From the NCBI GenBank assembly GCA_963698395.1, contig CAVOQQ010000006.1, positions 482,098 to 546,097 of the forward strand: DNA of 64,000 nt, written 5' to 3'. The notes under the pieces were generated by a model, which saw only the letters and a list, made by a program, of their open reading frames with translations, had not been told where the DNA came from and did no database searches. Position 1 is the stretch's first letter; each line of letters starts with the position of its first letter. The stretch is from an uncultured Acidimicrobiales bacterium (lineage in GTDB: Bacteria; Actinomycetota; Acidimicrobiia; Acidimicrobiales; SZUA-35). The translations under genes and the position numbers were made by a program. This document shows, in pieces, positions 5,554-54,803 of this stretch.

Positions 5554-5676
5554 GGGTTCTTCTCCTGGTGTGGGCGGTGATCGGTCGAATGACCGTGGTG
5601 AGGCGAACGAGAAGCGACGGTAAGGACTCGAGCGGGAAGGTTCAAGTCCGTCGATGTGCGAGGAGGTCTGCCGGTA

Positions 5677-6243
5677 TCAGTTGCCGAACGTCACGTGCGG
5701 CGGTTCGCTCTGTCCGTCGGGAGCTCGATAGAACGACCGCTTGCCGACGTTGGCGATGCCGGAGAAGAACATCCAGGGGACGGTGATCACCAGTTTGTTG
5801 AGGGTGGCGACGGCATCGTTGTAGTACTGGCGGGCGAACGAGATCTGGTTCTCGGTGTCGGCCAGTTGGCGTTGGAGATCGAGGAAGTTCGTGTTGGCCT
5901 TCAGGTCGGGGTAGGCCTCGGCCACGGCGTTCACGTTGACGAGCGCGCTCTCGAGCTGCGCATCGGCTGCCGCCTTGGCCTCGACGTCGTCGCCCTGTGC
6001 CGCGGCCTGGAGGCGGGCTCGGGCTCGGGTGACCTCGTCGAGCACACCCTGCTCGTGACTGGCATAGCCCTTGACCGTCTCGACGAGGTTGGGGATCAGG
6101 TCGGCCCGTCGAGTCAGCTGGACGTCGATGCCACCCAAGGCCTCCTGAGCGCTGACGTCGGCCCGACGGAGGCGGTTGAAGCCGCTGATGCCGAAGGCCA
6201 CGAGGGCGATCAACAGCACGATGATGATGAGGAAGTAGATCAT
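5677..6243 (-). CDS. lemA: LemA family membrane protein
   Basis: Internal ATG 6243 (MIYFLIIIVLLIALVAFGISGFNRL) gives an N-terminal TM helix followed by the LemA body (...RRADLIPNLVETVKGYASHE...FARQYYND). The upstream part of the track ORF is low-complexity. Confidence 0.85.
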   Translation of the reverse strand: MIYFLIIIVLLIALVAFGISGFNRLRRADVSAQEALGGIDVQLTRRADLIPNLVETVKGYASHEQGVLDEVTRARARLQAAAQGDDVEAKAAADAQLESALVNVNAVAEAYPDLKANTNFLDLQRQLADTENQISFARQYYNDAVATLNKLVITVPWMFFSGIANVGKRSFYRAPDGQSEPPHVTFGN

Positions 6244-11486: not shown

Positions 11487-11504
11487 ACCGATCACGGTAG
11501 GCAA

Positions 11505-18086: not shown

Positions 18087-18332
18087 GCGTCGGCTCCTCT
18101 GCGGATCGGGAGCAGCGTTCGGCGAGGCCCGCCCCCTGGGCACGCCCGACGCTACAACGCCCCGGTCGTCCGAATCACATTGCTCGGCGCGGGAGCAGGA
18201 GTCGTGGTGTGTGACGTGGACGAAGCCGGCCTCACGTCGCTCACCGACGAGGCCGGAATCATGGATCACTTCCTGCCACTGGGCGAGGTCGGCGACGACA
18301 CCTGGCAGCGGGTGATCGGAGCCGGTGACGCG

Positions 18333-18626
18333 TCAGCTCTTGGCCTCGTCGGCGGTGTCGGTCGCCTCGGTGGCGGCGTCGTCGACGAGGTCGGTTGCGG
18401 CCTTGGCAGCGGCGTCGGTGTCGATGGTTTCGTCGAGGTCGATCTCGGTGTCGGAATCGGCGATGTCGCCGAGCTTGCTCTCGACGGTGGAGGTGACCTT
18501 GGTGATCTTGTCGGTGTACTTGCCGCCGGTCTTCTTGTCGATCATCTCGCTGACGCCTCCGAGTTGGTCGGTGATCTTCGACGAGTTCTTGGAGAGCAGG
18601 GACTTGGCTTGATCGAGGAATTTCAT
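18333..18626 (-). CDS. Rv0909/MT0933-like 'antitoxin' family small protein with acidic C-terminal tail
   Basis: ATG 18626 (MKFLDQAKSLLSKNSSKITDQLGGVSEMIDKKTGGKYTDKITK), preceded by GGAGA. The N-terminal 50 aa match my memory of the MT0933-antitoxin family pattern (...KTGGKY...). Confidence 0.6.
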   Translation of the reverse strand: MKFLDQAKSLLSKNSSKITDQLGGVSEMIDKKTGGKYTDKITKVTSTVESKLGDIADSDTEIDLDETIDTDAAAKAATDLVDDAATEATDTADEAKS

Positions 18627-18755
18627 GGTGGTGTCTCCGATAGTGGCAGGAACGAACACCAACCTAGGTCCGTTCGGTCGCATTGGCGTTCACCCCTGCC
18701 CAGGTGCAACAAGGCGTTCACATGGCTGCCGGCTGTCGAGTCGCTCGCCAGAGGG

Positions 18756-22750: not shown

Positions 22751-24505
22751 TCAGCCTCGCGAGACCTCACGCGGCGACGCAGCACGCAGGCGACCGACCG
22801 AGCGGCGTCGCAGCTTGGTCTTCCAACTCTCGGTGACGTCAGCCAACCTCGCCTGGGCCGCGGCGTCGCCGATCAGCACCAGGCTGGTACGGGGGCCGAG
22901 CAGCGCGTCACCGCTGGGATTGCCGATGAGCTGGCCGTCGACGTCGATGGCGACGACATTGCATCCGGTCTCGGCCCGGATGTGTGAGTCGGCCAGGGTC
23001 TTGCCCAGCATCGTCGGCGGCACGGGGGCCCGGAAGACGTCGAGACCTTCGGCGACGACGAGGGTGTCGTTGCCACGGAAGTGGTTCCAGATCGCCGCCG
23101 CCCCGATCGATGCATAGGAGAGGACATCGTCGGCCCCGGCTCGGTAGAGCGTCGACACGTTGCGATCGAGGTTGGCCCGAGCAACGATCCGGATGTCCGG
23201 GCGTAGCCGCCGAATGTAGATCGACAGGTAGATGTTGACATCGTCGTCGTGGGTCGTCACCAGCACGCCGGTGGCCGAGCGGATGCCCGCCGACTCGAGC
23301 ACGGCAAGGTCGGCGGCATCACCGATCACGTAGTGGTCACCGTGGATCCGGTCGCTCTGCTGTTCGATGATCCGATGAGCGATGTCGGCCGCATCGAAGG
23401 CCCGACCGGCGGCTCGGCCGACTCGACCGCCGCCGATGATCACCACCGCCCCGGCATGGTCCGAGTTTGTCTCGTACTCACGGTCATACGCCTCCAGCTG
23501 TTGCTCGGAGGCAGCAAGGATCAAGACCGATGATTCGGTGAGCAAGGTCTCGGGAGTGGCGATGGTGAAGACGCCATGGTCCCAGACTCCGATGACGCCA
23601 ACGCCGAGTCTCGACCGCAATGCTGCCTCGGCGAGACGAACACCGACGAGCGGCGTGGCTGCCACTCGAGCTTCGGCGATCAGGACGCCGGCGAATCGTC
23701 CGATGACGTGGCTTCGACCGTCGGGCAGCAGTGTTCGATTCGACATCGACGTCCCCAGCAGTTCGCCGAGACGCAACACCTCGTCGGCCCCGGCCAGCTC
23801 CAGGATGTCGATCGAGGCGGCCTTGGTTGCCGTCGCCACGACGGGGACATCCGGCGAGATCTCTCGCACGGTGAAGATGATGTTGGCGTTGGTCGTGTCG
23901 GGCCAGGTGGCCGGCACCAGAGCAGCGTTGGCCACTCTGGCGGCCCGGTGGGTTGCCGGGTCATCGCTGCTGCCGACCATGACCTGGTAGCCCTGGTCGT
24001 GGAGTTTGAGAGCCTCGGCCAGATCGTCGACGAGGACGACGTACCCGACCCCCGCCTGCTCGGCCCGCCGAATGAGCGCGTCCTCGATCGGTCCCAGACG
24101 GGTGAGGACGAGGTGGCCGCTGGTTTCTTCGGGAAGGCTGCGAGGGGCCCGACTGGCGTCGCGCCGAGTCATCCAGGGAACGAAGACGAACTGGATGAAC
24201 GCGAAGGGCAGGAGGATCAACAAGAACGCCGTTCCGGTCAGGAGGACCACGACCGAGAAGATGCGCCCGACGTCAGAGGTGAAGGTGATGTCGCCGAACC
24301 CCAACGTGGTCATGGTGACGAGCGTCCAGTAGAAACCGGTGGCCCAGCTGTGGTTCTGACCTTCGCGAGCCATCAGCTCGTGGAAGATGACGGTGAAGCT
24401 GACGACGAGCACCACGAAGATGCCGAGCAGGACGAGCACCATGCGGAGGTCTCGGCGACGTAACGGTCCCGCGAGGTAGCTCAGGACGAATGCGAGACTC
24501 TTCAT
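22751..24505 (-). CDS. Potassium channel (2-TM pore) with two RCK/TrkA domains
   Basis: ATG 24505 (MKSLAFVLSYL...). Selectivity filter TTLGFGD, then two Rossmann-like RCK modules (second one VVIIGGGRVGRAAG). This is only the C-terminal 584 codons of the 1445-aa track ORF. Confidence 0.85.
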   Translation of the reverse strand: MKSLAFVLSYLAGPLRRRDLRMVLVLLGIFVVLVVSFTVIFHELMAREGQNHSWATGFYWTLVTMTTLGFGDITFTSDVGRIFSVVVLLTGTAFLLILLPFAFIQFVFVPWMTRRDASRAPRSLPEETSGHLVLTRLGPIEDALIRRAEQAGVGYVVLVDDLAEALKLHDQGYQVMVGSSDDPATHRAARVANAALVPATWPDTTNANIIFTVREISPDVPVVATATKAASIDILELAGADEVLRLGELLGTSMSNRTLLPDGRSHVIGRFAGVLIAEARVAATPLVGVRLAEAALRSRLGVGVIGVWDHGVFTIATPETLLTESSVLILAASEQQLEAYDREYETNSDHAGAVVIIGGGRVGRAAGRAFDAADIAHRIIEQQSDRIHGDHYVIGDAADLAVLESAGIRSATGVLVTTHDDDVNIYLSIYIRRLRPDIRIVARANLDRNVSTLYRAGADDVLSYASIGAAAIWNHFRGNDTLVVAEGLDVFRAPVPPTMLGKTLADSHIRAETGCNVVAIDVDGQLIGNPSGDALLGPRTSLVLIGDAAAQARLADVTESWKTKLRRRSVGRLRAASPREVSRG

Positions 24506-24601
24506 GGCCCAGCATGATGGCACGGCGCCGATGCAGAACCGCCGTTCGGGTTCGGGTGTCTGGGGTATCGTCCGAGACGGCGAGCAGCTCAGGAGGCACT
24601 G

Positions 24602-26218
24602 GTGCACCGTGACGACGCAACGAATTCGACGACCCACGACATCGTCATCATCGGCGCCGGCTTCAACGGTCTCTATCAGCTCTACCGATTGCGGGCCGAA
24701 GGGTTCGATGTCCGCCTGGTCGAGGCCGCGCCGGGGCCTGGTGGCGTCTGGTACAACAACAGCTATCCCGGGGCTCGGGTCGATTCGTACATCCCGGACT
24801 ACGAGTTCTCGATGGAAGCGGTCTGGCGCAACTGGAACTGGTCGGAGCGCTTCCCCGGGGCCGAGGAGCTTCGCCGTTACTTCGTTCACGTCGTCGACAC
24901 CCTCGAACTGCGGGCGAACATCGGTTACGACACTCGCGTCGAGACGGCGACGTTCGATGACGACGCTCGTCGCTGGCTGCTCGCGACGACTGCGGGCGAG
25001 CTCTCGGCCCGGTTCCTGATCCCCTGCCTCGGCTTTGCCTCGAAGCCTTTCATCCCCGCCATCGACGGGTTGGAGAGTTTCGCCGGCGGGTGTCACCACA
25101 CTGCACTGTGGCCGGAGCAGGGCGTCGAGTTCGACGGCAAGCGAGTCGGCGTGATCGGCACCGGTGCCAGCGGGGTCCAGGTGGTGCAAGAAGCGGCCAG
25201 AGTGGCCGATCACCTCGTGGTATTCCAGCGAACGCCGGTCACTGCCTTGCCCATGCAGCAACAGCGTTACTCGATCGCCGAGCACGAGGCGCTCAAGGCG
25301 GACTATCCCGAGATGTTCCGACGCCGCAACTCCCCACCGGGAAGTTTCAGCAACATTCGTCGACTCGACGTCTCCGCCCTCGAGGTGTCGGAAGAGGAGC
25401 GACAGGCCGTCTTCGAGGCGGCATGGCAACGTGGCGGCTTCCACTTCTGGAACGGAACGTTCGCCGACATCATGTCCAGCAGCGAGGCCAACCGCACCGC
25501 CTATGACTTCTGGCGCGACAAGACCAGGGCTCGCATTGCCGACCCGTGTCTGGCCGAGGTGCTCGCGCCGACCGATCCGCCGTATCCGTTCGGCGCCAAG
25601 CGGCCATCGCTCGAGCAGGACTACTACGACGTGTTCAACCAGGACAACGTGGAACTCGTCGACCTGAGCGCCGACCCGATCCTTCGGGTGACGCCGACCT
25701 CGGTGCAAACCGCTACCGGATCGATCGACCTCGACGTGCTGATTCTGGCGACGGGCTTCGATGCCAACACCGGTGGCATCCTCGCCCTCGACCTCCATGA
25801 TCTCGAAGGCGTGTCGCTGTCTGAGCGGTGGGCCGATGGCGTCGACACCCATCTCGGAATGGCGGTTCCCGGGCTTCCCAATCTGGTCTTCCTCTACGGG
25901 CCGCAGAGCCCGACGGCGTTCTGCAACGGTCCGACCTGCGCCGAGGTCCAGGGCGAATGGGTGGTCGGACTCCTGGTGGCCATGCGAGCCAGTGAGCTGA
26001 CTCGCATCGAGGCGGCCGAGGAAGCGGCTGCAGCGTGGACGGCCCAGGTCGAGCGGGTCGGAGCCATGACGCTGTTTCCGCAGGCCGACTCGTGGTACAT
26101 GGGCGCCAACATTCCCGGCAAGAAGCGGCAGTTGCTGAACTATCCGTCGACCGACAGCTACCTCCGACAGCTTCGAGCGAACGCCGCAGCGGGCTACACC
26201 GGATTCGTGCTGACCTGA
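24602..26218 (+). CDS. Baeyer-Villiger monooxygenase (cyclohexanone-MO-like)
   Basis: 538 aa from a GTG start. Motifs IVIIGAGFNGL, fingerprint FAGGCHHTALWP, GVIGTGASGVQ. Confidence 0.9.
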   Translation: MHRDDATNSTTHDIVIIGAGFNGLYQLYRLRAEGFDVRLVEAAPGPGGVWYNNSYPGARVDSYIPDYEFSMEAVWRNWNWSERFPGAEELRRYFVHVVDTLELRANIGYDTRVETATFDDDARRWLLATTAGELSARFLIPCLGFASKPFIPAIDGLESFAGGCHHTALWPEQGVEFDGKRVGVIGTGASGVQVVQEAARVADHLVVFQRTPVTALPMQQQRYSIAEHEALKADYPEMFRRRNSPPGSFSNIRRLDVSALEVSEEERQAVFEAAWQRGGFHFWNGTFADIMSSSEANRTAYDFWRDKTRARIADPCLAEVLAPTDPPYPFGAKRPSLEQDYYDVFNQDNVELVDLSADPILRVTPTSVQTATGSIDLDVLILATGFDANTGGILALDLHDLEGVSLSERWADGVDTHLGMAVPGLPNLVFLYGPQSPTAFCNGPTCAEVQGEWVVGLLVAMRASELTRIEAAEEAAAAWTAQVERVGAMTLFPQADSWYMGANIPGKKRQLLNYPSTDSYLRQLRANAAAGYTGFVLT

Positions 26219-26269
26219 CGGCGCTCCGGCCCGACTGCGCTCTGGCCCCTTGCGAGCTAGGTTCTGCTC

Positions 26270-27154
26270 ATGGACACGATGATCGACTCGTCGGTGTTGT
26301 CGGAAGAACAGCGGGAGTTCTACCGCAACGAGGGGTACCTCCAGCTTCCGGGACTCGTCGACCAGGAATGGTTGGCCGAGCTCCGATCGGTGTCGGCGGC
26401 GTTCGTGGAGCTGAGTCGTGAGATCTCCGCATCCAACAGGGTCCTCGATGTCGAGCCGACGCACCGCGCCGAACAACCGAAGCTTCGGCGTCTCAACTCG
26501 CCGGTCGACAACCACGAGACCTTCCGCCGGTTCTCGTTGGAAGGCCCACCGGCTCAGGTGGCGATGGCGTTGCTCGGTGGACCGGTGCGCTATCACCACT
26601 CGAAGCTCAACTACAAGTGGTCCGACGGCGGTGAAGAGGTCAAGTGGCATCAAGACATCCAGTTCTGGCCGCACACCGACTTCACGCCGTTGACGATCGG
26701 CGTCTACCTCGATGACGTGGATGACGAGATGGGGCCGATGGGTGTCCTGCCCGGCAGTCACACCGGCAAGCTCTACGACCTCTACGACGCCGATGGCTCG
26801 TGGGCCGGCGCCATCGCCGATGACGATCTCGCCTCGATCGACCTGTCGCCGATGGTCTGGCTGAAGGGTCCAGCCGGGTCGATGACCGTGCACAACTGCT
26901 GCATGGTGCACGGGTCGCTGCCGAACCATTCGGCTCGCCCTCGGCCACTCCTCTTGCAGACCTATTCGGCCATCGAGTCGTATCCGGTGGCCGGCATCGG
27001 AGCGAACGGCGTCACGGGTCGCACGAGCGGCGTGATCATCGGCGGGCCGCCAACCCAACAGCTGACGATCGATGGTCGCCGGCTGCACGGCGCGCCCGAC
27101 TGGTCGCGTAGCGGCCCGCCGACCATCTTCGGCTCACAGCAGAAGGATCGCTGA
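26270..27154 (+). CDS. Phytanoyl-CoA dioxygenase (PhyH) family oxygenase
   Basis: 294 aa with FYRNEGYLQLPGLV, WHQDIQFW (H-x-D) and MVHGSLPN. It lies 51 nt downstream of the BVMO on the same strand. Confidence 0.8.
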   Translation: MDTMIDSSVLSEEQREFYRNEGYLQLPGLVDQEWLAELRSVSAAFVELSREISASNRVLDVEPTHRAEQPKLRRLNSPVDNHETFRRFSLEGPPAQVAMALLGGPVRYHHSKLNYKWSDGGEEVKWHQDIQFWPHTDFTPLTIGVYLDDVDDEMGPMGVLPGSHTGKLYDLYDADGSWAGAIADDDLASIDLSPMVWLKGPAGSMTVHNCCMVHGSLPNHSARPRPLLLQTYSAIESYPVAGIGANGVTGRTSGVIIGGPPTQQLTIDGRRLHGAPDWSRSGPPTIFGSQQKDR

Positions 27155-33715: not shown

Positions 33716-33895
33716 TCAGTACTCGCCGCGCAGCCCGAATCGGTTCTTCCCGTCGCCTTCGTCGGGGTCATTCGGGATGTTCGGGTTCTGCTCGATCTCG
33801 TGTTCCATCAGCGCCAGGCTGCCCGCCATCACGGTGCCCCACACCGTGAGCGCGAAGACGGCCACCCCCACGATGAAGATCACCGTATTGCTCAT
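33716..33895 (-). CDS. 59-aa small membrane protein (hypothetical), below the ORF-track size cutoff
   Basis: My translation is MSNTVIFIVGVAVFALTVWGTVMAGSLALMEHEIEQNPNIPNDPDEGDGKNRFGLRGEY*. ATG 33895 overlaps the stop of the upstream small gene (ATGA). GC3 bias is good. Confidence 0.5.
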   Translation of the reverse strand: MSNTVIFIVGVAVFALTVWGTVMAGSLALMEHEIEQNPNIPNDPDEGDGKNRFGLRGEY

Positions 33896-34110
33896 GATCG
33901 CACCGCGTTCTCGGTGCCGGCAGTGGGTGTCTGGACCGGGGTGAGCAGAAGGGTACCGAGCGAGTGGATCGACGGAACCCAGAGTCCGACGAAGATCCCG
34001 GCCATCGTTTCGTCCTGGATGAAGTACAACCAGACGGAGAACAAGAAGGAGGCGAACCCGGCGATCATGAAGGGAAGCTTCAGTCGAATCGATTGGGGAA
34101 GGGCGGGCAT
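33892..34110 (-). CDS. 72-aa small two-TM membrane protein (hypothetical)
   Basis: ATG 34110, preceded by GAGGAG. MPALPQSIRLKLPFMIAGFASFLFSVWLYFIQDETMAGIFVGLWVPSIHSLGTLLLTP... This is the 3' tail of the composite 490-aa track ORF. Confidence 0.55.
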   Translation of the reverse strand: MPALPQSIRLKLPFMIAGFASFLFSVWLYFIQDETMAGIFVGLWVPSIHSLGTLLLTPVQTPTAGTENAVRS

Positions 34111-34349
34111 CGGGACTCCTCGGGTCGTGGTCTCCACCAATGCTTCGCTGCGGCGACGCTTCGAGATGCGTTCGGTCGAAACAATTTGCGAGAGGGTCGT
34201 GCCATCGGCGTCATCGCAGCGAAGGTTTCGACCTCGAGGTCGGGATCTCATCGTCTGAGGTCGCGTTCGGCTCGGCGCTCCGTGGATGGACGCGAGCTCA
34301 GTCGGTGGTCGAGCAGTTCGGCGCGCCGTACGGGCGAGCCGGGAACGGC

Positions 34350-35235
34350 TCAACCGAGTTCGGGATCGAGCGTCCGGGGTGTGAGCTTGCGGATCAACGC
34401 TTCCTGGGTCATCGAGGCCACCAACCTGCCATCGATATCGAAGATCGTTCCCCGTACCAGGCCCCGTGAGTTCTGGTTGCTCACGGCCTGAACGTCGAAG
34501 TACAACCACTCGTCGACTCGCACCGGCCGATGGAACCACACCGCATGGTCGAGGCTGGCCGACATCGTCTGGGTGATCGCCGTCTGCCAGCGCTCGCCCA
34601 GGGTCGGGACTGCGGCGGCGGTCACCGCTCCCATGTCGGTGGCGTAGGTGAGCGCGGCAGGCATGGAGCAGACGGTCGTCGGGAAGTGGTGATTTCGCCT
34701 TGACCCACACGCGCCGAGTCGACGGGTAGACCCCATCGGGCCCCGGTGTCGCCGGGCCGAGTTCTCGGGAGTGGAAGGGGGAACGTGCCAACCACTCGGC
34801 GTGGAGATCGTCGCGCGGAACCCGATCGGCGGCGTCGTCGGGATGCCCGGCATCGGTCGGGAGGCTGAGCTGGTAGTCGGTTTCGTCTTCTTCGAACTTG
34901 TGGAAGCTGGCGGTGAGGTTGAAGATCGCTTCGCCGAACTGCACGGCGACGACCCGGCGCGTCGTGAACGAACGACCGTTGCGAATGCGATCGACATGGA
35001 ACACGATCGGTCGTCCTGGGACACCGCCGCGCAGGAAGTAGCCGTGCAGCGAGTGGGGCTGGTGTTCGACGTCGATCGTGAGGGTGGCAGCCCGCAGGGC
35101 CTGCGCCGCCACCAGTCCGCCGAACACCCGCTGATTGTGACGCTCGGCCGGATTGTGTCCCCGGTACAGATTGACGTCGAGTTCTTCCAGCTCGAGCTGG
35201 TCGAGAAGGAGGTCGACCTGGGAGGTGTCGGTCAT
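34350..35235 (-). pseudogene. tesB: Acyl-CoA thioesterase II, frameshifted (886 nt, +1)
   Basis: The N-terminal part (MTDTSQVDLLLDQLELEELDVNLYRGHN...DDRLLHAC) is in one frame. The C-terminal part (AALTYATDMGAV...MSASLDHAVWFHRPVRVDEWLYFD...RGLVRGTIFDIDGRLVASMTQEALIR) is in another. The junction is at TGCCGCG, 34653-34659, and GC3 bias follows the frame switch. Confidence 0.8.
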
Positions 35236-35366
35236 GCCTCTGTGTACCTCCAATCCCGGAACGGCTGCAACCGGCCCTGCTGCCGCTCGCTGCATGTGAC
35301 CGCTCGAACGAGCCCGAGTAGCGTCGCCGTCAGCCAGCACGCACGAGCGCACAACGGGAGCCAAGC

Positions 35367-39018: not shown

Positions 39019-39531
39019 TCACGAAGGGGTGGGGACGAACAGGAGCTCCATCGCCTCGGGCTCGAGCCCGAGCGCGATGAGCTGTTTGGAGTAGCCGATG
39101 AAGCAGCCGATGGCGTAGGTCAACTCGACGAGTTGGGCGTTGTCGAAGTGGGCCCGCAACCGGGCCTCGAGTTCTGCCTCGGGCGCATGCCCGCCGCTGA
39201 GCAGCACATCGGCCCACGCCAGGGCTGCCTTGTAGTGCTCGGGCAGATCGCTGTTCTGATGGTCGTCATCGATCTCGGTGACCAGGGCTTCACTGAGTCC
39301 GGCCTCACGGGCCGCGATGAATCGGACCTGTCGTCACAATCCGCAGTCGGTGATCCGAGCATTGCGAAGGCGGACGAGTTCCTTGACGTCTTCGCCCACG
39401 GTTCCGCCGGTCCACAGGGTGGCATAGAGACGGTCGAAGCATTCCCGGAGCTCCGGTGCGTGCGACCACGTCGAACGGATCGAGGCAGCGGTGCCCGGTG
39501 TTGGTGCAGGTAATCGGGGAGTGGTGGTCAT
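39019..39531 (-). CDS. Carboxymuconolactone decarboxylase/AhpD-like family protein with one in-frame TGA (39336-39334) at the second Cys position of CxxC: candidate selenoprotein or nonsense allele
   Basis: Track ORFs 39334..39531 and 39019..39207 are in the same frame. My translation is ...KELVRLRNARITDCGL[TGA]RQVRFIAAREAGLSEALVTEIDDDHQNSDLPEHYKAALAWADVLLSGGHAPEAELE.... The total is 170 codons with this one stop only. Confidence 0.6.
39296..39328 (-). other. Hairpin 8 nt downstream of the in-frame UGA (candidate bacterial SECIS)
   Basis: The lower stem is GGUCCG (39328-39323) paired with CGGACU (39301-39296), with G-U closing. The upper stem is UCA(U)CG / CGUGA. The apical loop CGGCC (39314-39310) carries GG about 21 nt after the UGA. 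Confidence 0.35.
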
Positions 39532-40031
39532 CAGAGCGACTCCGTCTTCGGTGCGCTCGCCGGCGCCGTATCGAGCAGCGAATTGTCAAAGCGATGCATG
39601 AGTTCCCATAGGGCCAGGGCAGTGGTGAGGGTGACGACGCCATCGGCTCCAACCGCGGCAGTGACCCGGTCGACCATCTCGTCGGTCACGCCGTGCACAT
39701 CGAGTACGTACTGTTCGGAGAGTGCGATGCAGGCTCGATCGGTTTCGCTGAATCGTTCATCGGTCGGCCACGCCGCAAGGGCGGCGATGGTCGCCTCGTC
39801 GAGGTCGTCGATTCCAGCGGTCCGTTCGGCGAGCCCAGTCTGATTGCGGAGCAGCTTCGCTGTTCGGAGGCGGCACAGCTCGAGCGTTCGGAGGGCGACC
39901 GGGCCGGCCCAGATGGCATCGACGACACGGTGATGATCGGCAGCGAGCGGCGGCCGAAGTTGGAGCAGGCTGTCCCGGCTGGCAGCGTCGCCGGTGATCC
40001 AGCTCATGGGGTTCGACTGATCGGTGTCCAC
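39531..40031 (-). CDS. Carboxymuconolactone decarboxylase/AhpD-like family protein (paralogue lacking CxxC)
   Basis: 166 aa; LELCRLRTAKLLRNQTGLAERTAG aligns with the CxxC region of its neighbour but has no Cys pair. Its stop overlaps the next start (TGATG at 39533-39529). Confidence 0.65.
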   Translation of the reverse strand: MDTDQSNPMSWITGDAASRDSLLQLRPPLAADHHRVVDAIWAGPVALRTLELCRLRTAKLLRNQTGLAERTAGIDDLDEATIAALAAWPTDERFSETDRACIALSEQYVLDVHGVTDEMVDRVTAAVGADGVVTLTTALALWELMHRFDNSLLDTAPASAPKTESL

Positions 40032-40507: not shown

Positions 40508-42547
40508 GTGAGCGACGGTCAGCGGCCCGTACTCTCCGTCATCGTGGGCAACCTGAACCAGGACCAGACCGGCGACCTCGATTCGGGCGTACAACTTCGA
40601 CATGAGGCCGGCCTCACGGCCGGTCTGATCATGCCGCTCGGCACCGGGTCGTTTCAGTTCGGGCCGCAACACACCGCCTCGGAGGGTCTGGGATCCGGAG
40701 AACCCGAAGCAACGAGCTTCCAACTGACGGTCGAAGGAGCAGACCGGATCTTCGCCGCCCGCGGTGACGAGCCGCTTGCCGTCGAGGGAACGCCCGTCCT
40801 CGATCGCGTGCAGGTGCGTCCAGGCGAAGTCCTGCAACTTGCGACCGACCATTTCATGGTCGACAGCACGGCAAGCACAAAGGACACATCGCCGCCAACC
40901 CAGCTTCGGGTGCCGCCCCTGCCGAAGGTCAACGACGCCGGTGAGCAACGCTGGGGCCTGCTCCTGGGGTTGGTGGCCGTCATCGGGCTCGCCCTCGTCC
41001 TTGCTCTTGCCGGAGTCGGGATCGTCAGGCTCGCCATCGTCGTCGTTCTGGGGCTCTCCATCGTCGCCGTCGCTCGGTACCTGCTTTCGAAGCGAGCCGA
41101 CGAGAAGCGAAGGGAGCAACGTGCCATCGTCACCGAATCGTTCACGACAGACCTGCGGGCTGCCCGATCCGCAGCCGCTCGGGAGCTTCGCCACGCCCAT
41201 CCTGGGCCGGCAGGCGTCTCGGATCTTGCCGCCGGCCGGCGGTCGCTCGTCGGCGCGTTCGACGGCCAGGTGTCGATTGCCTCCGGCGACCTCGGCTGGC
41301 AGCCACGCATCGACGACGGAGCCACTGCCGGCTGGAACCACGACGCCATCGTCACCCAGCACGACTTCCTGCCCGCCGTCCCGTTCACCGTCGATATCGA
41401 TCATGACACGATCGGGATCGTCGGGAACCGGCGGTCGGTGCTTGCGGTTGCCCGTCACTTGTTGACGGCCACGATGGTTCAGGCCGATCGCTCCGAGCTT
41501 CGCATCACCATTTCGGCCGCCGATGATCGCCAGGCCGACTGGGCCTGGTTGGACGGCTTTTGCTCGGCCGGCCGGTGGACCCACGAGATCAACGTGTTCG
41601 ATGGGGTCGTGCCGCCGCGGAGCGGGCCCGGCTTCGTCATCCTCGCCGAGGCGGACGACGAGCTGGTCGTCGACTGTGGAACCACACTGATCGTTCGTGA
41701 CGATGGTGTCGCGATGGCCGAGACCCAGAGTGGATCGGCAACGGGCCTGGTACCTCACGGCATCACCGAGACCCACGCCCAGTCGATCGTGGCCGCTCTG
41801 GCAGAGGTCACACAGAAAGACGCAGCCATCGGTGACACCCCGCCGGTCGTCGTGCCGCCCGACGATCATGCGCCGATTGCTCCGCTGACCGAGATGCCCG
41901 CCGATGCTCCCACCATCGACCTCACACCCGAGCGTCGTGCGAGTGCGGGTGTCGCGCAGCGCCTGATGGTGGTCGGGGAGCCAGGAGAAGATGTCGTATC
42001 GCTCGTTGCCTCTGCCGTTCTGGATCATGCAAGCGAGCACCCCGACCGGCCCATGTTCGTGCTCGATCGCGGCGACCGGTCACTGATCCGTTTGGCCCAA
42101 TTGCCGTCATGTCACGGCTATGCGGCCATCGATGACGTTCCGGCAGCGACCGAGATGATGGAGCGGTTGGAGGAGTTCGTGGCGTCGGGCCGGGAGATCC
42201 CTGCGCTGCTGGTCGTCTCCGATCTCGGTCGAGCACTCGAGTTCTACCGTCGAGCCGGATTGGCTGACCCGCTTGGGCGTCTCGAATCGCTGCTCGACCA
42301 ACGCTCGCGACTCGTGTGCGCCACTGCCTCGACTCGCCCCGGAACCGAGGGACTCGAGCAACTGGTTCATCGTTTTCCTGTGTTCGTGTTTGCCTCTGCC
42401 GACGATCAAGGCGCGGCCGAAGGGCTTCTCGTCCTCGACTCGAGCGGCGAGCACCGCGTGCACGATTTCTCCGTCGCCGGTCTCGATCTGACCGACAAGG
42501 TTGCGAGGATGACCTTCGCATCCTCGAACGCACGAAGGGCATCATGA
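40508..42547 (+). CDS. Hypothetical membrane protein with FHA-like N-terminus, two TM helices and two P-loop-like domains with degenerate Walker A (FtsK/EssC-like architecture)
   Basis: 679 aa from a GTG start. The N-terminus FQLTVEGADRIFAARGDEPLAVEGTPVLDRVQVRPGEVLQLATDHFMV resembles the C-terminal half of an FHA fold. The TM pair is WGLLLGLVAVIGLALVLALAG / LAIVVVLGLSIVAVARYLL. IGIVGNRRSVLAVARHLL and RLMVVGEPGEDVVSLVASAVL sit where GxxGxGKS/T would be. Confidence 0.45.
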   Translation: MSDGQRPVLSVIVGNLNQDQTGDLDSGVQLRHEAGLTAGLIMPLGTGSFQFGPQHTASEGLGSGEPEATSFQLTVEGADRIFAARGDEPLAVEGTPVLDRVQVRPGEVLQLATDHFMVDSTASTKDTSPPTQLRVPPLPKVNDAGEQRWGLLLGLVAVIGLALVLALAGVGIVRLAIVVVLGLSIVAVARYLLSKRADEKRREQRAIVTESFTTDLRAARSAAARELRHAHPGPAGVSDLAAGRRSLVGAFDGQVSIASGDLGWQPRIDDGATAGWNHDAIVTQHDFLPAVPFTVDIDHDTIGIVGNRRSVLAVARHLLTATMVQADRSELRITISAADDRQADWAWLDGFCSAGRWTHEINVFDGVVPPRSGPGFVILAEADDELVVDCGTTLIVRDDGVAMAETQSGSATGLVPHGITETHAQSIVAALAEVTQKDAAIGDTPPVVVPPDDHAPIAPLTEMPADAPTIDLTPERRASAGVAQRLMVVGEPGEDVVSLVASAVLDHASEHPDRPMFVLDRGDRSLIRLAQLPSCHGYAAIDDVPAATEMMERLEEFVASGREIPALLVVSDLGRALEFYRRAGLADPLGRLESLLDQRSRLVCATASTRPGTEGLEQLVHRFPVFVFASADDQGAAEGLLVLDSSGEHRVHDFSVAGLDLTDKVARMTFASSNARRAS

Positions 42548-48401: not shown

Positions 48402-48627
48402 CCCGACGAACGAACATGAGCACCGGCCACCGAGCCCAACGGTCACCTCGACAACGCCGGTGACGCAGTTGTGCCGATTGACCTTCGGCCACCGGGGCGG
48501 ATGCGCGGTCGAACCGGCACAATGAAGCGCCTCGATCCCGCGTCCACGCCAGCGTCCCCTCTGGCCTTCGCCCCGGCACGGGGGGATGCATCTCGACCCG
48601 ACCCGACCGTGTTATCAAGGTGGGAAC

Positions 48628-50874
48628 ATGACAAAGGAACCGGCAATGCCGAGCACATCACGACGGCTCGCCAAGTTGGCCGTGTTGACGAGCGGCGGGG
48701 ATGCCGCCGGGATGAACGCTGCGGTACGTGCCGTCGTCCGGACCGGGTTGGACCTGGGCATCGAGATGTTCGTGGTCTTCGAAGGGCTGCGGGGTCTGGT
48801 CGAGGGCGGTGATCTGATACGACCGGCGACCTCGGACGACGTCGGCGGCATCATGCATCGCGGGGGGACCGTGCTCGGCACCGCTCGTTCCGAGGCGTTT
48901 CGAACCCGCGACGGTCGGCGGCAGGCAGCACGAAATCTGGTTGAGCATGGCATCGATGCGCTGGTGGTCGTCGGCGGTGACGGCAGCCTCACCGGGGCCG
49001 ACCTCTTCCGGGAGGAATGGTCGGAGCTGCTCGACGAGTTGGTCGAGCAGAATGAGCTCGAACGGGCACAAGCCGACGCCCACGGCCGCCTGACGCTGGC
49101 CGGCCTGGTCGGATCGATCGACAACGACATGTTCGGCACCGACATGACGATCGGCGCCGACACTGCGCTTCATCGCATCACCGAGGCAATCGACGCGATC
49201 CAGAGCACGGCGTCCAGCCACCAACGGTCCTTCGTCATCGAGGTGATGGGACGCCATTGTGGCTACCTGGCGTTGATGAGCGCGCTCGCCACGGGAGCCA
49301 ACTTCGTACTGATCCCGGAGAACCCACCCGATACCGACGAGTGGGCGCCGTCGATGTGTCGAGCGCTGGAAGCCGGCCGGGCGATCGGGCGCCGCTCCAA
49401 CATCGTGATCGTCGCCGAGGGTGCGCAGGACATGCACGGCAACCCGATCACCGCTCAGCAGGTCAAGAAAGTCCTCGAGGAACTCAGCGGAGAGGACACC
49501 CGTGTCACCAGCCTTGGTCATGTGCAGCGAGGCGGCGCTCCGAGTGCGTTCGACCGGTACCTCGGCACCGTGTTCGGTCACGCCGCGGTCCAGCACCTTG
49601 CCGCGTCGCCCGACGCCGAGCCGCAACTGGTCGGAATCAGAGGCCACCAGATCGTCAACTCGCCACTGATGGAGAGCGTGGCGAAGACGAGGTCGGTCGC
49701 CGACGTCATCGCCAGGCACGACTACGACGCAGCGATGGCGATGCGAGGCGGCAGCTTTCGCGATTCGTTCCGGATGATGCGCACGATGGTGCGCGCCCAA
49801 CCGCACGTGCCGGCGCCCGGTCAGCGAAGGCTTCGGCTCGCCGTGTTGCACGGCGGTGGCCCAGCGCCGGGAATGAACACCGTCGTCCGAGTTGCGGTCC
49901 GGGCCGGAATGGACCTCGGACACACCGTGCTCGGGGTCCGACGCGGGTTCCGCGGGCTGGGCCGAGGCGAGGTCGAAGAGATGGACTGGATGAGCGTGTC
50001 CGGCTGGGTCGGGCGCGGCGGAGCCGAACTCGGTACGAGCCGATCGGTCGCCAGCCCCGAGATGCTCGCCGACGTCGCGGCGCAGATCCAGGCTCACGGC
50101 ATCGATGGGATCCTCGTGGCCGGCGGCTGGCCCGGGTATCAGTCTGCCCATGCAATGCAGATGCTGGCCGAGGTCCATCCGGCGCTGAAGATCCCGATCG
50201 TCTGCCTCCCCGCGTCGATCAACAACGATCTCCCCGGGTCGGAGCTGAGCATCGGCGCCGACACCGCGCTCAACAGCATCGTGAGCGACGTCGACAAGAT
50301 CAAGCAGTCGGCCGTGGCCTCTCGGAGGATCTTCATCGTCGAGGTGATGGGCTACGACTGCGGGTACCTGGCTCTGGTCAGCGGACTCGCCAGCGGTGCC
50401 GAACGCGTCTACGTCCCGGAGGAGGGGATCTCACTGCGCGATCTCGAGACCGACCTCGACGCGTTGAAGGACGGGTTCGAACACGGCAAACGGCTGGGCC
50501 TCGTCATTCGGAGCGAACACGCCGACGAGACCTACACCACCGACTTCATCAAGGCGCTCTTCGAGCGCGAGGGAGAGGGTTTGTTCGATGTTCGCGGCGC
50601 AATCCTCGGCCACGTGCAGCAGGGCGGGAATCCGTCGCCGTTCGATCGGATCCAGGCGACCCGGCTGGCGTGGGAGAGCGTCCATCATCTCGTCGAGCAA
50701 GTTGTTGCCGAAAGCCCGACCAACGCAATGATCGGGCTGCGGCATGGCAAGATCCGATTCACACCGCTGGCTGCGTTCCCGACACTCGTCGATGCGGATG
50801 TCCATCGGCCGCTCGAGCAGGATTGGATGTCGCTGGCACCCATCGCCGAGGTGATGGCCCGATCGGTCCGGTAG
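48628..50874 (+). CDS. pfk: ATP-dependent 6-phosphofructokinase, duplicated/fused (eukaryote-type, ~748 aa)
   Basis: ATG 48628, preceded by AAGGTGGG. The N-half has LTSGGDAAGMNAAVRAVVR, VVVGGDGSLTGA, GSIDNDMFGTDMTIGADTAL, VMGRHCGYLAL and LGHVQRGGAPSAFDR. The C-half repeats the fold with LHGGGPAPGMNTVVR, LVAGGWPGYQSA, PASINNDLPGSELSIGADTALN, VMGYDCGYLAL and LGHVQQGGNPSPFDR. Confidence 0.9.
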   Translation: MTKEPAMPSTSRRLAKLAVLTSGGDAAGMNAAVRAVVRTGLDLGIEMFVVFEGLRGLVEGGDLIRPATSDDVGGIMHRGGTVLGTARSEAFRTRDGRRQAARNLVEHGIDALVVVGGDGSLTGADLFREEWSELLDELVEQNELERAQADAHGRLTLAGLVGSIDNDMFGTDMTIGADTALHRITEAIDAIQSTASSHQRSFVIEVMGRHCGYLALMSALATGANFVLIPENPPDTDEWAPSMCRALEAGRAIGRRSNIVIVAEGAQDMHGNPITAQQVKKVLEELSGEDTRVTSLGHVQRGGAPSAFDRYLGTVFGHAAVQHLAASPDAEPQLVGIRGHQIVNSPLMESVAKTRSVADVIARHDYDAAMAMRGGSFRDSFRMMRTMVRAQPHVPAPGQRRLRLAVLHGGGPAPGMNTVVRVAVRAGMDLGHTVLGVRRGFRGLGRGEVEEMDWMSVSGWVGRGGAELGTSRSVASPEMLADVAAQIQAHGIDGILVAGGWPGYQSAHAMQMLAEVHPALKIPIVCLPASINNDLPGSELSIGADTALNSIVSDVDKIKQSAVASRRIFIVEVMGYDCGYLALVSGLASGAERVYVPEEGISLRDLETDLDALKDGFEHGKRLGLVIRSEHADETYTTDFIKALFEREGEGLFDVRGAILGHVQQGGNPSPFDRIQATRLAWESVHHLVEQVVAESPTNAMIGLRHGKIRFTPLAAFPTLVDADVHRPLEQDWMSLAPIAEVMARSVR

Positions 50875-52474: not shown

Positions 52475-54803
52475 TCGTCGCCGTCGAGTGGGACCTGCAA
52501 CGGATCCTCGCTGCGGGATCGATCGTGCTCACCGTGGTCTTCGTTGCCATCGCAATCGTGACGGCCCGCCGGCCCCGCCCGGTTCGGGTCGGGTTCGACC
52601 TGGCGCGGCTCGCGGTGTCGATCGTGTCGGTCGCAGCGATGACCGCGATCGTCGGTGTCTCGAGCGAACTCGGGTGGGTCTTGCTCGCACTCGGCGGCGG
52701 CCTACTCCTCGGGACCGGTCAAGGGTGGTTCACGAAGATCAATTGGCGAGACGGTAGGGCGCTCGCATCCCGAACCGTCACGGGAATCGTCGTGTGGGCC
52801 GCTGGCGTGGTGGTGATGCAGGTGGCCGGGGTGTTGGCGCAAAGCAGGGCCTTGCAGATCGGTCAGGCCGTTTCGTGGTTCGGTGTCGGTGTCATGGCAG
52901 GCACGATCGCCGGACGCCAACCTCGTATCGAGCGGAGCGCACTCGGCGCCCGGGCGGGAAGTGTCGTGGCTGCCGTCTTGGTCGTTGCCGTTCCGGCAAT
53001 GTTCGGAGTTGCGCAATCGGGCGAGGCCTCTGCCCAGGCCGATGCCGAGTGGGTACTCGTCGAGACACAGGTCAATCCGGATGGGGACGCGGACCCGGTG
53101 AACTGGGTGGTCACGGCAACGGACCGCTCGCTGACCGTCGTCGAGTCGTTCGGACCCGACGACCTGATCGGTGCCGAGGCGTTGTTCGAGGCATCGTGGA
53201 CCGCGCCCCCGACCGGCTCGAGCCCGGCGCTTCGCTTTCCATCCCGGTCACGGTGTCGGGTCGCAACACGGGCAACCTGAACACGCAGTACTTCTTCGGG
53301 CTCAACGTGATCATGCTGGTCGACCACCGATGGAACGACCAGGCGGTCGGAGCCGGGGCGAGCTGCGTCCAGACGACGGTGATCAGTGGTGAGTACGTGT
53401 GTAGCGATCCGGAGACGAACTCCGGGGTGCTTCAGACCACGGTGCCGACCAGCGGCGAGTCGTACACGATCGGGATCAGCGCGCTGAACTGCGGCAACGC
53501 CTGCTACGTGATCTGGACCTACCGACTCGTATCGGCATCGACCGTGACTCAGGCTCCAGCCACCCCGGTGCCCTCGAGCGTTCCGGCCACCGGTTCGACG
53601 CTGGCCCCGACCAGTGAGCCTCCGCCAGGCGAGGACAGCGGGCTCGTGACGCCGCTGACTCCGGTCGCGACTCCGGACGAGATCGACTCCGATGCGGCGA
53701 TCGGGCAGGCCATCGGCGGTTTGATCGCAGCGGTGGCCATCGGACTCATCTCGGCCGCCGACGCCGGTGTGCTGATCAGCTCGATCCTCGGACAGGGTCC
53801 GCTGAGCCCGGACGAGGCCATGACCCAAATCGATCGCGTCTTCGAGCCGGTCGAGCCGGTCGAGCCGGTCCAACCGGTCCAACCGGTCGAACCCCATGAG
53901 CCCCCTGAGCCCCCTGAGCTCGTTTCGTCCCTCCCCGTAGAGCCGCCCGCGCCCCCGGCGCCCTCCCTCGTGCCGCCGCTGCCGCCCCAACCGCCGTCTC
54001 GTCCCGTCCGCGATTCGCATCGGACGAGTCAGGTGGATTCGAGCGATCCATGTGGAGCGCTGGTCAGCAACTATCGGGATTCGCTTCGGAAGTGGATGGA
54101 CATCCAGAACCGAATTCTCCCCCTGGAGAACGAGCGCTGGGCGCTCACCCAATACATCGAAAAGGACGCAGAGTCCGATTTCTGGGGCGCAGCTTCCTAC
54201 CTCGCGACACTCGGATTCGACACGCTCGCGGGCCCGACCACCTCGTCGGGCACGCTCGACGCAATGGTGTCGGCGTTCGAGCAGAGCTTGCGGCGCAGCG
54301 TCATGACACAAGCACTTCAGGCTGCGTTCATGGGGGAGGAGTTCGACCCCGACGAGGTCGCCCAGAAGGCAGTGACGGACGCAATCGGCTTCCGATCAGC
54401 GGAGCAGGGCGATCCTACCCAGGCTGCGTTCGGCGCCTTCCTCAAGGAGAGTCTCACCGGCCTGGCAGCCCAGATCGCCGGCTCCAAGGCGCTCCGGACG
54501 GTGAAGGCGTCGGTCGAAGCGGGAGTGTTGAGCGCCGCCGACGCCCAGCGTTTGGAAGCGACGGTGCAGGGATCCTTCGCTCGCGACATCGGGCCGGTGC
54601 TCGGCGTCGGGTTCAAGGCCTATGAGCTCTGGTCGAAGAACAGCGAGTGGGGTGAGGGGGCCGAGCGGAGGGCCCACATGCGGAATCATCTCGTCGACCT
54701 CGGCACCAGAATCCACGAGCTCGAGCTCGACCGGGCCGAGGTCGAGCTGAGCCGCAATGTCGATCGCCAGCAGCTTGCTCGATGCCGAGCGGAGAACCCA
54801 TGA
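52471..54803 (+). pseudogene. Large hypothetical envelope-spanning protein, reading frame broken at a C5 run (53206-53210); a frameshifted gene or an assembly indel
   Basis: ATG 52471 overlaps the upstream stop (ATGA). Frame 1 (polytopic membrane N-terminus ...LFEASWTAPP) loses GC3 bias after ~53210. Frame 0 gains it from ~53190 (...DRLEPGASLSIPVTVSGRNTGNLNTQYFFGLN...). One added C would give a continuous ~777-aa protein: multi-TM, Cys-containing beta domain, TM, (EPV)n Pro-rich tract, ~260-aa helical domain. Confidence 0.6.
53844..53915 (+). repeat. 8 x 9-bp in-frame tandem repeat encoding EPVEPVEPVQPVQPVEPHEPPEPP
   Basis: gagccggtc x3, caaccggtc x2, gaaccccat, gagccccct x2, all contiguous. 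Confidence 0.9.

What the first reader, a model, noticed from the sequence alone, without database searches (positions are those of the whole stretch)
39019..39531. In-frame TGA exactly at the second cysteine of the CxxC motif of an AhpD/CMD-family gene: candidate CxxU selenoprotein
The ORF track shows two fragments (39334..39531 and 39019..39207), but they lie in one frame separated by a single TGA at 39336-39334. The minus strand reads ...DVKELVRLRNARITDCGL-TGA-RQVRFIAAREAGLSEALVTEIDDDHQNSDLPEHYKAALAWADVLLSGGHAPEAELEARLRAHFDNAQLVELTYAIGCFIGYSK.... After the TGA about 105 codons stay open with unchanged GC3 bias. The total of 170 codons is normal for this family. In AhpD/CMD (COG2128-like) proteins the helix L-x-x-L-R-x-A-x-x-x-x-C-x-x-C carries the redox pair, and the TGA sits where the second Cys belongs (C-G-L-U). 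UGA replacing a catalytic redox Cys is the classical signature of selenocysteine. As far as I recall, AhpD-like/CMD-domain proteins are among the families reported with Sec forms in bacterial and marine selenoproteome surveys. A hairpin begins 8 nt after the UGA. Its lower stem is GGUCCG (39328-39323) with CGGACU (39301-39296), its upper stem is UCA(U)CG/CGUGA, and its apical loop CGGCC carries GG about 21 nt from the UGA, a geometry compatible with bacterial SECIS elements. The competing explanation is a plain TGC/TGT to TGA nonsense mutation, since this window contains four other disrupted genes. A random nonsense hit landing on this particular codon would be a notable coincidence.
Basis: partly seen in the sequence, partly recalled or inferred. 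Interest (0 to 1): 0.78.

Follow-up and report, generated by a model that had tools for sequence, protein, structure and literature searches.

The report
Missed selenoprotein gene, AhpD-like family
The "broken" gene is almost certainly an intact selenoprotein gene whose internal TGA encodes selenocysteine; that is real biology, but it belongs to the AhpD-like CxxU kind of bacterial selenoprotein known since 2005.

Summary
Window 39019..39531 (-) is one 170-codon frame with a single TGA at 39334-39336, at the second Cys position of the redox motif (C63-G-L-U66).

The selenoprotein reading is strongly supported by comparison:
- All 15 closest relatives (53-82% identity) keep TGA at this codon. 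So do 11 more distant ones. Only 3 of 25 loci from a scan blind to that codon have TGC.
- dN/dS is about 0.13-0.29 on both sides of the TGA.
- A hairpin 15-36 nt after the TGA, with an invariant CGUGA loop, shows compensatory changes at three pairs. It is absent from Cys forms.
- TGA is the normal stop codon in this genome.

The profile matches solved AhpD-like/CMD structures (PA0269, E 4e-27). The gene is always paired with a Cys-less paralogue just upstream (39531..40031), and the two are fused in other lineages.

The host resembles Ilumatobacter (Acidimicrobiia). selA/B/C/D could not be checked.

AhpD-like CxxU selenoproteins have been known since 2005, so this is a new, uncurated member of a known kind. 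Interest is modest.

The parts
39019..39531 (-). Complete selenoprotein gene of 170 codons, AhpD-like/CMD fold. The ATG is at 39529-39531, the terminal TGA at 39019-21 and Sec at codon 66.
   Evidence: Searches give the frame; a profile of the family matches the solved AhpD-like/CMD structures PA0269 (2ijc/2o4d) at E 4e-27, Atu0492 at 2e-20 and Bmp8 at 1e-12; dN/dS against L087 is 0.148 before the TGA and 0.126 after it; the nearest Cys form found, P0151, is 48% identical over 169 ungapped residues, with Cys aligned to codon 66.
39334..39336 (-). In-frame UGA, read as selenocysteine (U66).
   Evidence: TGA sits at the homologous codon in L001, L003, L005 and L006 and in 22 of 25 loci from a metagenome scan whose patterns did not include this codon. 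The exact N-terminal fragment is also on record from a second assembly, Logan ERR12037370.
39334..39345 (-). Redox motif C63-G-L-U66. It follows E51 at the AhpD spacing, E-x11-C-x2-U-x3-R70.
   Evidence: E51, R54, C63 and position 66 are invariant across Sec and Cys forms. One search aligns the motif to the GCayC motif of PA0269. In PMC3141380 the proton relay of PA0269 is Glu36, Cys48, Tyr50, Cys51 and His55.
39297..39318 (-). SECIS-type hairpin. In the family the pairs are 19-22 with 37-40, a bulge at 23, and 24-27 with 33-36, counting T of TGA as position 1. In the window the core stem is 39314-39310 with 39304-39300, and the apical loop CGUGA is 39309-39305, starting 25 nt after the UGA.
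   Evidence: the 14-nt block GCCCGTGAGGCCGG is identical in 14 of the 16 members of the CGL-U clade (position 24 differs in L001 and L005), synonymous positions included; 89.8% of cells pair; pairs 20/39 (AU 12, CG 3, UA 2), 24/36 (GC 14, CG 4, UG 1) and 27/33 (CG 21, UA 1) change on both sides; no shuffle of 500 reaches the covariation score; slid controls pair at 26-52%. Cys forms keep a mean of 3.2 of the 8 pairs, and the Arg codon in the loop is CGT in 22 of 22 Sec forms against 1 of 11 Cys forms.
39531..40031 (-). Partner gene: a CMD-fold paralogue without the Cys/Sec pair ('LLRNQTGL' in place of 'ITDCGLU'). Its stop overlaps the Sec gene's start (TGATG). The true start is probably the Met at 40007, giving 158 aa, as in orthologues that begin MSW(L/I).
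   Evidence: it lies directly upstream (1-nt overlap, abutting, or a 4-nt gap) in every CGL-U locus with enough sequence, and it is the only conserved neighbour; hhalign against the Sec family gives probability 99.5%, E 2.6e-23. Fused forms are shown.

Best explanation
This is an intact gene for a 170-residue AhpD-like/CMD-fold selenoprotein. It is not a pseudogene.

How the codon is read (inferred): the UGA at codon 66 is decoded as selenocysteine by the bacterial SelB pathway. SelB carrying Sec-tRNA(Sec) binds the hairpin that lies 15-36 nt after the UGA, whose apical CGUGA loop offers a G-U. This delivers Sec to the ribosome in place of termination.

What the product does (inferred): it carries a C63-x-x-U66 centre at the start of a helix, at the same spacing from a conserved Glu as in AhpD. 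It most likely cycles between a selenol/thiol and a selenenylsulfide, acting as a small reductase for a peroxide, a sulfenic acid or another electrophile. The substrate is unknown.

The partner (inferred from adjacency and fusions): the protein probably works as a hetero-oligomer with the Cys-less paralogue encoded immediately upstream and translationally coupled to it. Together the two equal a split form of two-domain proteins found elsewhere.

Shown here: conservation of the UGA, selection on the downstream coding sequence, covariation in the RNA, fold-family membership, and partner adjacency and fusions.

Inferred only: actual Sec insertion, the redox chemistry, the hetero-oligomer and the substrate.
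For: 1. One frame with a single TGA at the second Cys position of the motif.
2. The four nearest database homologues are 102-104-aa C-terminal fragments. Their contigs show the same 65-aa plus about 102-aa split around an in-frame TGA in CGL*RQVRF.
3. A metagenome scan used patterns taken only from the part after the TGA. It returned 25 loci, 22 with TGA and 3 with TGC. The motifs are CGL-U, CGY-U, CPY/CHY-U and CSY-U.
4. All complete Sec forms read on to a stop at the homologous C-terminus. dN/dS is 0.13-0.29 on both sides of the TGA, with dS about 0.8-1.1 to the closest relative.
5. It stays GC-rich in relatives from 42% GC genomes.
6. TGA ends 43 of 52 crude gene calls in the window, so there is no change of genetic code.
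7. The family profile matches solved AhpD-like/CMD structures, with the CxxC aligned.
8. Among the 150 best representatives of 1.84 billion proteins, 35 are full-length CxxC forms. At least 18 are roughly 90-120-aa fragments that begin a few residues after the U position, which is what gene callers make of Sec forms.
9. AhpD-like COG2128 CxxU is an established and abundant marine selenoprotein family (PMC1088965; PMC2398784 counts 299 Sec and 902 Cys forms in GOS). A related Acidimicrobiia order is reported to carry selA, selB, selC and selD in all its genomes (bioRxiv 10.64898/2026.04.03.716425).
Against: The Sec machinery was not seen. The window has no tRNA and no selA/B/D among the roughly 40 proteins scanned. 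The rest of the 580-kb source contig and genome could not be read.

In the window itself the lower part of the family hairpin is weakened (A19.C40 and G22.G37 do not pair). A competing fold is 3.6 kcal/mol more stable. Single-sequence fold energies are no better than those of shuffles.

Pfam CMD and every NCBIfam model score below their curated cut-offs for this protein.

Two of the five AhpD proton-relay residues are replaced (L65 and R70), so peroxidase-type chemistry is not assured.

There is no experimental evidence of selenium incorporation.
Confidence: 0.92

Rival explanations
1. Nonsense pseudogene: a TGC/TGT to TGA mutation inactivated an ordinary CxxC AhpD-like gene in this strain.
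For: The window was said to hold other disrupted genes; I did not verify this. Long open stretches after a TGA are common by chance here, at 16%. The Sec machinery was not seen.
Against: The same TGA is present in all 15 other members of the closest clade and in 11 more distant relatives. The frame stays intact to the homologous stop. dN/dS after the TGA is 0.13-0.29. A covarying hairpin follows the TGA only in the TGA-bearing forms.
Confidence: 0.02
2. Sequencing or assembly error at 39334-39336.
For: The source is probably a metagenome-derived contig. Raw reads were not available.
Against: The identical 65-aa fragment and the same split are on record from a second assembly, Logan ERR12037370. 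That assembly may rest on the same reads. The same codon is TGA in relatives from many unrelated samples.
Confidence: 0.01
3. UGA is recoded, but not by the Sec pathway. Possibilities are near-cognate read-through (Trp or Cys), or two separate polypeptides with re-initiation after the stop.
For: Gene callers start the C-terminal fragment of several relatives at a GTG or ATG two or three codons after the TGA. The Sec machinery was not verified.
Against: That start codon is not conserved. In the window V69 is GTC, and the first possible start lies 43 codons after the TGA. The position is a catalytic Cys in homologues, which is the classical Cys/Sec pair. The conserved stem-loop, with a G-U in its apical loop 25 nt after the UGA, fits SelB-dependent decoding as I recall the bacterial SECIS consensus. 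It has no role in plain read-through.
Confidence: 0.04

Closest known systems
[quoted passage not shown]
   Same: The fold family, Sec at the second position of CxxC, a bacterial SECIS just after the UGA with a G in the apical loop, many Cys homologues, and a partly marine distribution.
   Different: I could not compare sequences directly with the published examples. This clade (motif CGL-U, 170 aa, high GC, probably Acidimicrobiia) reaches no curated model cut-off. It is tied to a Cys-less paralogue, a feature I did not find mentioned in the passages of those papers that I read.
NCBIfam NF053654 'YciW-related (seleno)protein' (GroundWater_YciW)
   Same: It is the best NCBIfam match, E 3.3e-11 over residues 36-142, and is likewise a small CMD-type protein with optional Sec.
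   Different: The score is 43 bits against a cut-off of 310, so the protein is not a member of that equivalog. The same is true of TIGR01926, at 18.5 bits against 81.8.
PA0269 of Pseudomonas aeruginosa (PDB 2ijc, 2o4d) and Atu0492 (2gmy), AhpD-like proteins
   Same: The profile match covers nearly the whole length, at E 4e-27 and 2e-20, with Glu and CxxC aligned. PA0269 forms hexamers and shows weak thiol-dependent H2O2 reduction (PMC3141380).
   Different: They carry Cys rather than Sec. Their relay residues Tyr50 and His55 correspond here to Leu65 and Arg70. PA0269 is a homo-oligomer with no paralogous partner described.
Mycobacterium tuberculosis AhpD
   Same: The active-site spacing E-x11-C-x2-C (PMC3141380). 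From memory (Koshkin et al. 2003), the second Cys, Cys133, is the nucleophile, which is the position that holds Sec here.
   Different: In AhpD the motif lies in the C-terminal half of a larger protein, His132 and His137 are present, and the gene is linked to ahpC. No ahpC was found among the proteins scanned around this gene.
Bmp8 tetrabromopyrrole debrominase (PDB 6ohi)
   Same: A CMD-fold protein whose profile match is E 1e-12 over residues 21-163. As I recall, it uses a Cys pair for reductive dehalogenation. It shows that the fold supports chemistry other than peroxide reduction.
   Different: It is distant in sequence, carries Cys only, and nothing in this gene's surroundings links it to halogenated metabolites.
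Bacterial SECIS elements (E. coli fdhF type)
   Same: A stem-loop inside the coding sequence just after the UGA, a small apical loop with G-U, and a bulged nucleotide in the stem. This is from my recollection of the bSECISearch consensus and the SelB-SECIS structures.
   Different: There is no Rfam family for it: no match scored better than E 6. The loop sequence CGUGA and the palindromic GGCC/GGCC stem are specific to this gene family.

Membership tests
Bacterial selenoprotein gene | In-frame UGA aligned with a Cys in homologues | tested here: met
   U66 aligns with the second Cys of CxxC in P0003-P0006, P0151 and 79 Cys-form loci.
Bacterial selenoprotein gene | UGA conserved in independent orthologues, with the reading frame and selection kept downstream | tested here: met
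   26 relatives carry TGA. Frames are intact. dN/dS after the TGA is 0.13-0.29.
Bacterial selenoprotein gene | SECIS stem-loop shortly after the UGA, with G in a small apical loop | tested here: met
   The hairpin occupies positions 19-40 counting from the T of TGA. Its CGUGA loop starts 25 nt after the UGA. It covaries and is absent from Cys forms. The numerical limits of the consensus are from memory. In the window itself only a 5-bp core is solid.
Bacterial selenoprotein gene | selA, selB, selC (tRNA-Sec) and selD in the same genome | not testable with these tools
   None is in the 64-kb window. The rest of the 580-kb contig could not be fetched.
Bacterial selenoprotein gene | Selenium in the protein | not testable with these tools
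   This needs 75Se labelling or mass spectrometry.
CMD / AhpD-like superfamily (Pfam PF02627, COG2128) | Sequence membership in the family | tested here: met
   The single sequence scores below the Pfam cut-off, 18.1 bits against 23. The family profile matches solved CMD/AhpD-like chains at E 4e-27 to 1e-5 over residues 22-159. Cys homologues carry PF02627.
AhpD-like peroxidase-related proteins (PA0269 / M. tuberculosis AhpD type) | Five-residue proton relay: Glu, Cys, His/Tyr, Cys, His (PMC3141380) | tested here: not met
   E51, C63 and U66 are in place. The His/Tyr position is Leu65 (Tyr in the CGY-U clade). The final His is Arg70, which is nearly invariant in this family.
NCBIfam NF053654 YciW-related (seleno)protein; TIGR01926 peroxidase-related enzyme | Score above the curated cut-off | tested here: not met
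   43.3 bits against 310, and 18.5 against 81.8. Relatives also fall below the cut-offs.

The most novel reading that the evidence does not exclude
The Sec subunit and its Cys-less paralogue may form an obligate heteromeric selenoenzyme, a split form of two-domain relatives. Its altered active site (Leu and Arg in place of the AhpD His/Tyr and His) would serve a chemistry other than peroxide reduction, for example reductive dehalogenation or organosulfur/organoselenium reduction. It would also document selenocysteine use in Ilumatobacter-like Acidimicrobiia, where I found no report of it.
Probability: 0.25. Interest if true: 0.5.

Novelty: new member of a known kind. Interest (0 to 1): 0.3.

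Why it matters
For annotation: the gene, and every close relative in the public protein collections I searched, is recorded as two short unnamed ORFs. No curated model reaches its cut-off for it. A model that covers this clade would recover a small selenoprotein family and mark its hosts as users of selenocysteine.

For biology, it adds three things:
- a clean example of a SECIS element whose covariation is visible across clades of 42% to 71% GC;
- a conserved pairing, and in other lineages a fusion, of a catalytic Sec subunit with an inactive paralogue;
- indirect evidence for Sec use in Ilumatobacter-like marine actinobacteria.

None of this changes what is known about selenoproteins.

Tried and rejected
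1. My genome-contig scan used an alignment in which I had written C for U. The derived pattern therefore required TGY and returned only Cys forms (Erythrobacter, Porphyrobacter, Tepidiforma; at most 45% identity). It served as a Cys-form control, but it cost the one chance to find the source genome and its sel genes.

2. Attempts to reach the 580-kb source contig through exact protein look-ups returned only short Logan contigs without DNA, or nothing.

3. Rfam has no family for this element.

4. Single-sequence folding gives no significant z-scores.

I relied on the profile match to the PDB instead.

6. A second candidate in-frame TGA at 18335 proved to be two adjacent genes, a 116-aa ORF and a Baeyer-Villiger-type monooxygenase.

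7. No second copy of the hairpin core exists in the window.

8. No neighbour other than the partner is conserved, so context gives no clue to the substrate.

9. No tRNA-Sec lies in any of the 16 related loci scanned with ARAGORN.

10. An earlier count said that 39 of 52 gene calls end in TGA. The correct count is 43 of 52.

Full report
**Observation.** The minus strand of 39019..39531 is a single frame of 170 codons. Its only internal stop is TGA at 39334-39336, in ...KELVRLRNARITDCGL-TGA-RQVRFIAAREAGL.... An open frame after the TGA means little here, because 16% of all TGA triplets in this 65% GC window are followed by at least 104 open codons. GC by codon position is 0.60/0.62/0.69 before the TGA and 0.72/0.40/0.84 after it, so the 'unchanged bias' is only roughly true. 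TGA is the normal stop codon in this genome: 43 of 52 crude gene calls end in it.

**Family.** With C written for U, the protein gives a sub-threshold Pfam CMD match (E 0.0026, 18.1 bits against 23). Its best NCBIfam match is NF053654 'YciW-related (seleno)protein' at E 3.3e-11, far below that model's cut-off. A profile of the family matches solved AhpD-like/CMD structures over almost the whole length, with the CxxC aligned:
- PA0269 (2ijc/2o4d), E 4e-27
- 7xw1, 6e-27
- Atu0492, 2e-20
- debrominase Bmp8, 1e-12
- several chains named AhpD

The active-site spacing is that of AhpD and PA0269: E51-x11-C63-x2-U66. Two of the five proton-relay residues described for PA0269 and AhpD (PMC3141380) are replaced, by Leu65 and by the nearly invariant Arg70.

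**Is the TGA conserved?** The four nearest proteins in the 5.8-billion-protein collection are fragments of 102-104 aa that cover only the part after the TGA. On their contigs each is preceded by a 65-aa ORF (a shorter piece on L006, where the contig end cuts it off) in the same frame, separated by TGA in CGL*RQVRF.

I then scanned metagenome contigs with an alignment of the C-terminal part only. The search patterns (AREAGL[TS]E....ALAWA) could not select for or against the codon in question. Of the 25 loci returned, 22 have TGA and 3 have TGC.

The TGA-bearing sequences fall into four groups:
- CGL-U: 16 sequences including the window, 53-82% identical to it, 60-71% GC
- CGY-U: 7 sequences, some from 42% GC genomes
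- CPY/CHY-U: 2 sequences
- CSY-U: 2 sequences

All complete ones run on to a stop at the homologous C-terminus. Against the closest relative, L087, dS is 0.78 before the TGA and 1.09 after it, with dN/dS of 0.148 and 0.126. Five other comparisons give 0.16-0.29. The nearest full-length Cys form found, P0151, has CGLC and is 48% identical without gaps. A nonsense pseudogene or a base-calling error cannot produce this pattern. The exact 65-aa fragment is also on record from a second assembly.

**SECIS.** Positions are counted with the T of TGA as 1. The 14-nt block GCCCGTGAGGCCGG (positions 24-37) is identical in 14 of the 16 CGL-U sequences (position 24 differs in L001 and L005), including synonymous third positions. 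It forms the stem GGCC/GGCC around the loop CGUGA. In most members the stem is extended by GACC/GGUC across a bulged base.

On 22 Sec-form sequences this structure pairs in 89.8% of cells. Three pairs change on both sides:
- 20/39: A-U 12, C-G 3, U-A 2
- 24/36: G-C 14, C-G 4, U-G 1
- 27/33: C-G 21, U-A 1

No shuffle of 500 reaches the observed covariation score, and sliding the 3' partners drops pairing to 26-52%. Several of these changes pair an amino-acid replacement on one side with a synonymous change on the other, for example Asp, Ile or Ala at 19-21 with GGT, GGA or GGG at 37-39.

In 79 distinct Cys-form sequences the same columns pair at a mean of 3.2 of 8. The Arg codon in the loop is CGT in 22 of 22 Sec forms but in 1 of 11 Cys forms that have Arg there.

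Across relatives it pairs in only 66% of cells, with no covariation beyond shuffles. The loop starts 25 nt after the UGA and carries G-U. As I recall the bacterial SECIS consensus and the SelB-SECIS structures, that is the expected geometry. Rfam has no matching family.

**Partner.** The gene just upstream (39531..40031, its stop overlapping the start in TGATG) is a full-length paralogue of the Sec protein (hhalign probability 99.5%, E 2.6e-23). It lacks both redox residues. It lies directly upstream, with a 1-nt overlap, abutting, or with a 4-nt gap, in every CGL-U locus that has enough sequence, and it also precedes three Cys-form genes. It is the only conserved neighbour.

Two kinds of fusion exist:
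- The 289-aa CGY-U proteins carry a partner-like domain after the Sec domain (probability 97.4%, E 1e-11).
- Proteins of about 330-360 aa, such as P0152, carry a partner domain before a CxxC domain (probability 99.9%, E 5e-33).

This argues that the two products act together. No experiment supports it yet.

**Host and machinery.** The window's phosphofructokinase is 84% identical to one named as from Ilumatobacter sp., and 75-79% identical to several from Ilumatobacter and Acidimicrobiales MAGs. The window has no tRNA gene and no selA/B/D among the roughly 40 proteins scanned. I could not read the rest of the source contig. My one genome scan was wasted on a Cys-only pattern. A 2026 preprint reports selA, selB, selC and selD in all 84 complete genomes of Actinomarina, a related Acidimicrobiia lineage (10.64898/2026.04.03.716425). 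Sec use in this class is therefore plausible, but it is unproven for this organism.

**What is known.** AhpD-like (COG2128/YciW) CxxU proteins were described as selenoproteins in the Sargasso Sea survey, with 27 sequences (PMC1088965). They were the fourth most abundant selenoprotein family in GOS, with 299 Sec and 902 Cys forms (PMC2398784). Reviews list AhpD-like, CMD-like and AhpD-related CxxU families (PMC9312934, PMC13188914).

In a search of 1.84 billion representatives, the 150 best matches to the C-terminal part include 35 full-length CxxC forms. At least 18 are fragments that begin a few residues after the U position, which is the trace left by unrecognised Sec forms. No NCBIfam model reaches its cut-off for the window protein, for its nearest Cys form or for the fused forms.

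**Verdict.** This is a genuine selenoprotein gene (confidence about 0.92), mis-called as two ORFs. It is a new and uncurated member of a well-known class. The points worth keeping are the covarying SECIS, the obligate Cys-less partner with its fusions, the altered relay residues, and the implication that Ilumatobacter-like bacteria use selenocysteine.

Noticed in passing
window 39531-40031 (-): A CMD-fold paralogue lacking the Cys/Sec pair lies just upstream and is translationally coupled to the Sec gene. It is always adjacent in relatives. In other lineages it is fused to the catalytic domain, in either order.
   Followed up: yes
L099, L100, L102, L103 (genes at about 4839-5714): Low-GC (42-43%) marine relatives encode 289-aa proteins in which a Sec domain (CGY-U) is followed by a partner-like domain. 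The GC-rich SECIS stem is kept against the genomic composition.
   Followed up: partly
window 9768-11504 (-): A 578-aa protein combines a pyridine-nucleotide-disulfide oxidoreductase with a rhodanese domain, resembling CoA-disulfide reductase. Reviews list Sec forms of that family elsewhere. Here the frame is uninterrupted.
   Followed up: no
window 16233-18683 (-): A 116-aa ORF and a 678-aa flavin monooxygenase-like ORF share a frame and are separated by a TGA at 18335. The translation shows two unrelated adjacent genes, not a selenoprotein.
   Followed up: yes
window 48586-50874 (+): A 762-aa double-length phosphofructokinase has two PFK stretches. Its closest named relatives are in Ilumatobacter and Acidimicrobiales, which gives the likely taxon of the window.
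   Followed up: partly
window 33892-35364 (-): In a 490-aa ORF with a TTG start, only residues 77-155 match a known domain (acyl-CoA thioesterase, N-terminal). The ORF failed my crude codon-position filter, so it may be over-extended or disrupted.
   Followed up: no
window 22751-27088 (-): A very large 1445-aa protein has an ion-channel domain and duplicated TrkA-N/TrkA-C domains in its C-terminal third. The first 890 or so residues match no Pfam family.
   Followed up: no
window 40508-42547 (+), 52794-54803 (+), 13426-14676 (-): Several sizeable ORFs with coding-like composition (679, 669 and 416 aa) have no Pfam match.
   Followed up: no
L106, L107, L110, L111: More distant Sec forms (CPY/CHY-U and CSY-U) have different downstream hairpins: a CGGGA loop in one pair, and a GCUUC/GAAGC stem with a GGC loop in the other. 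The SECIS has therefore been remodelled within the wider family.
   Followed up: partly
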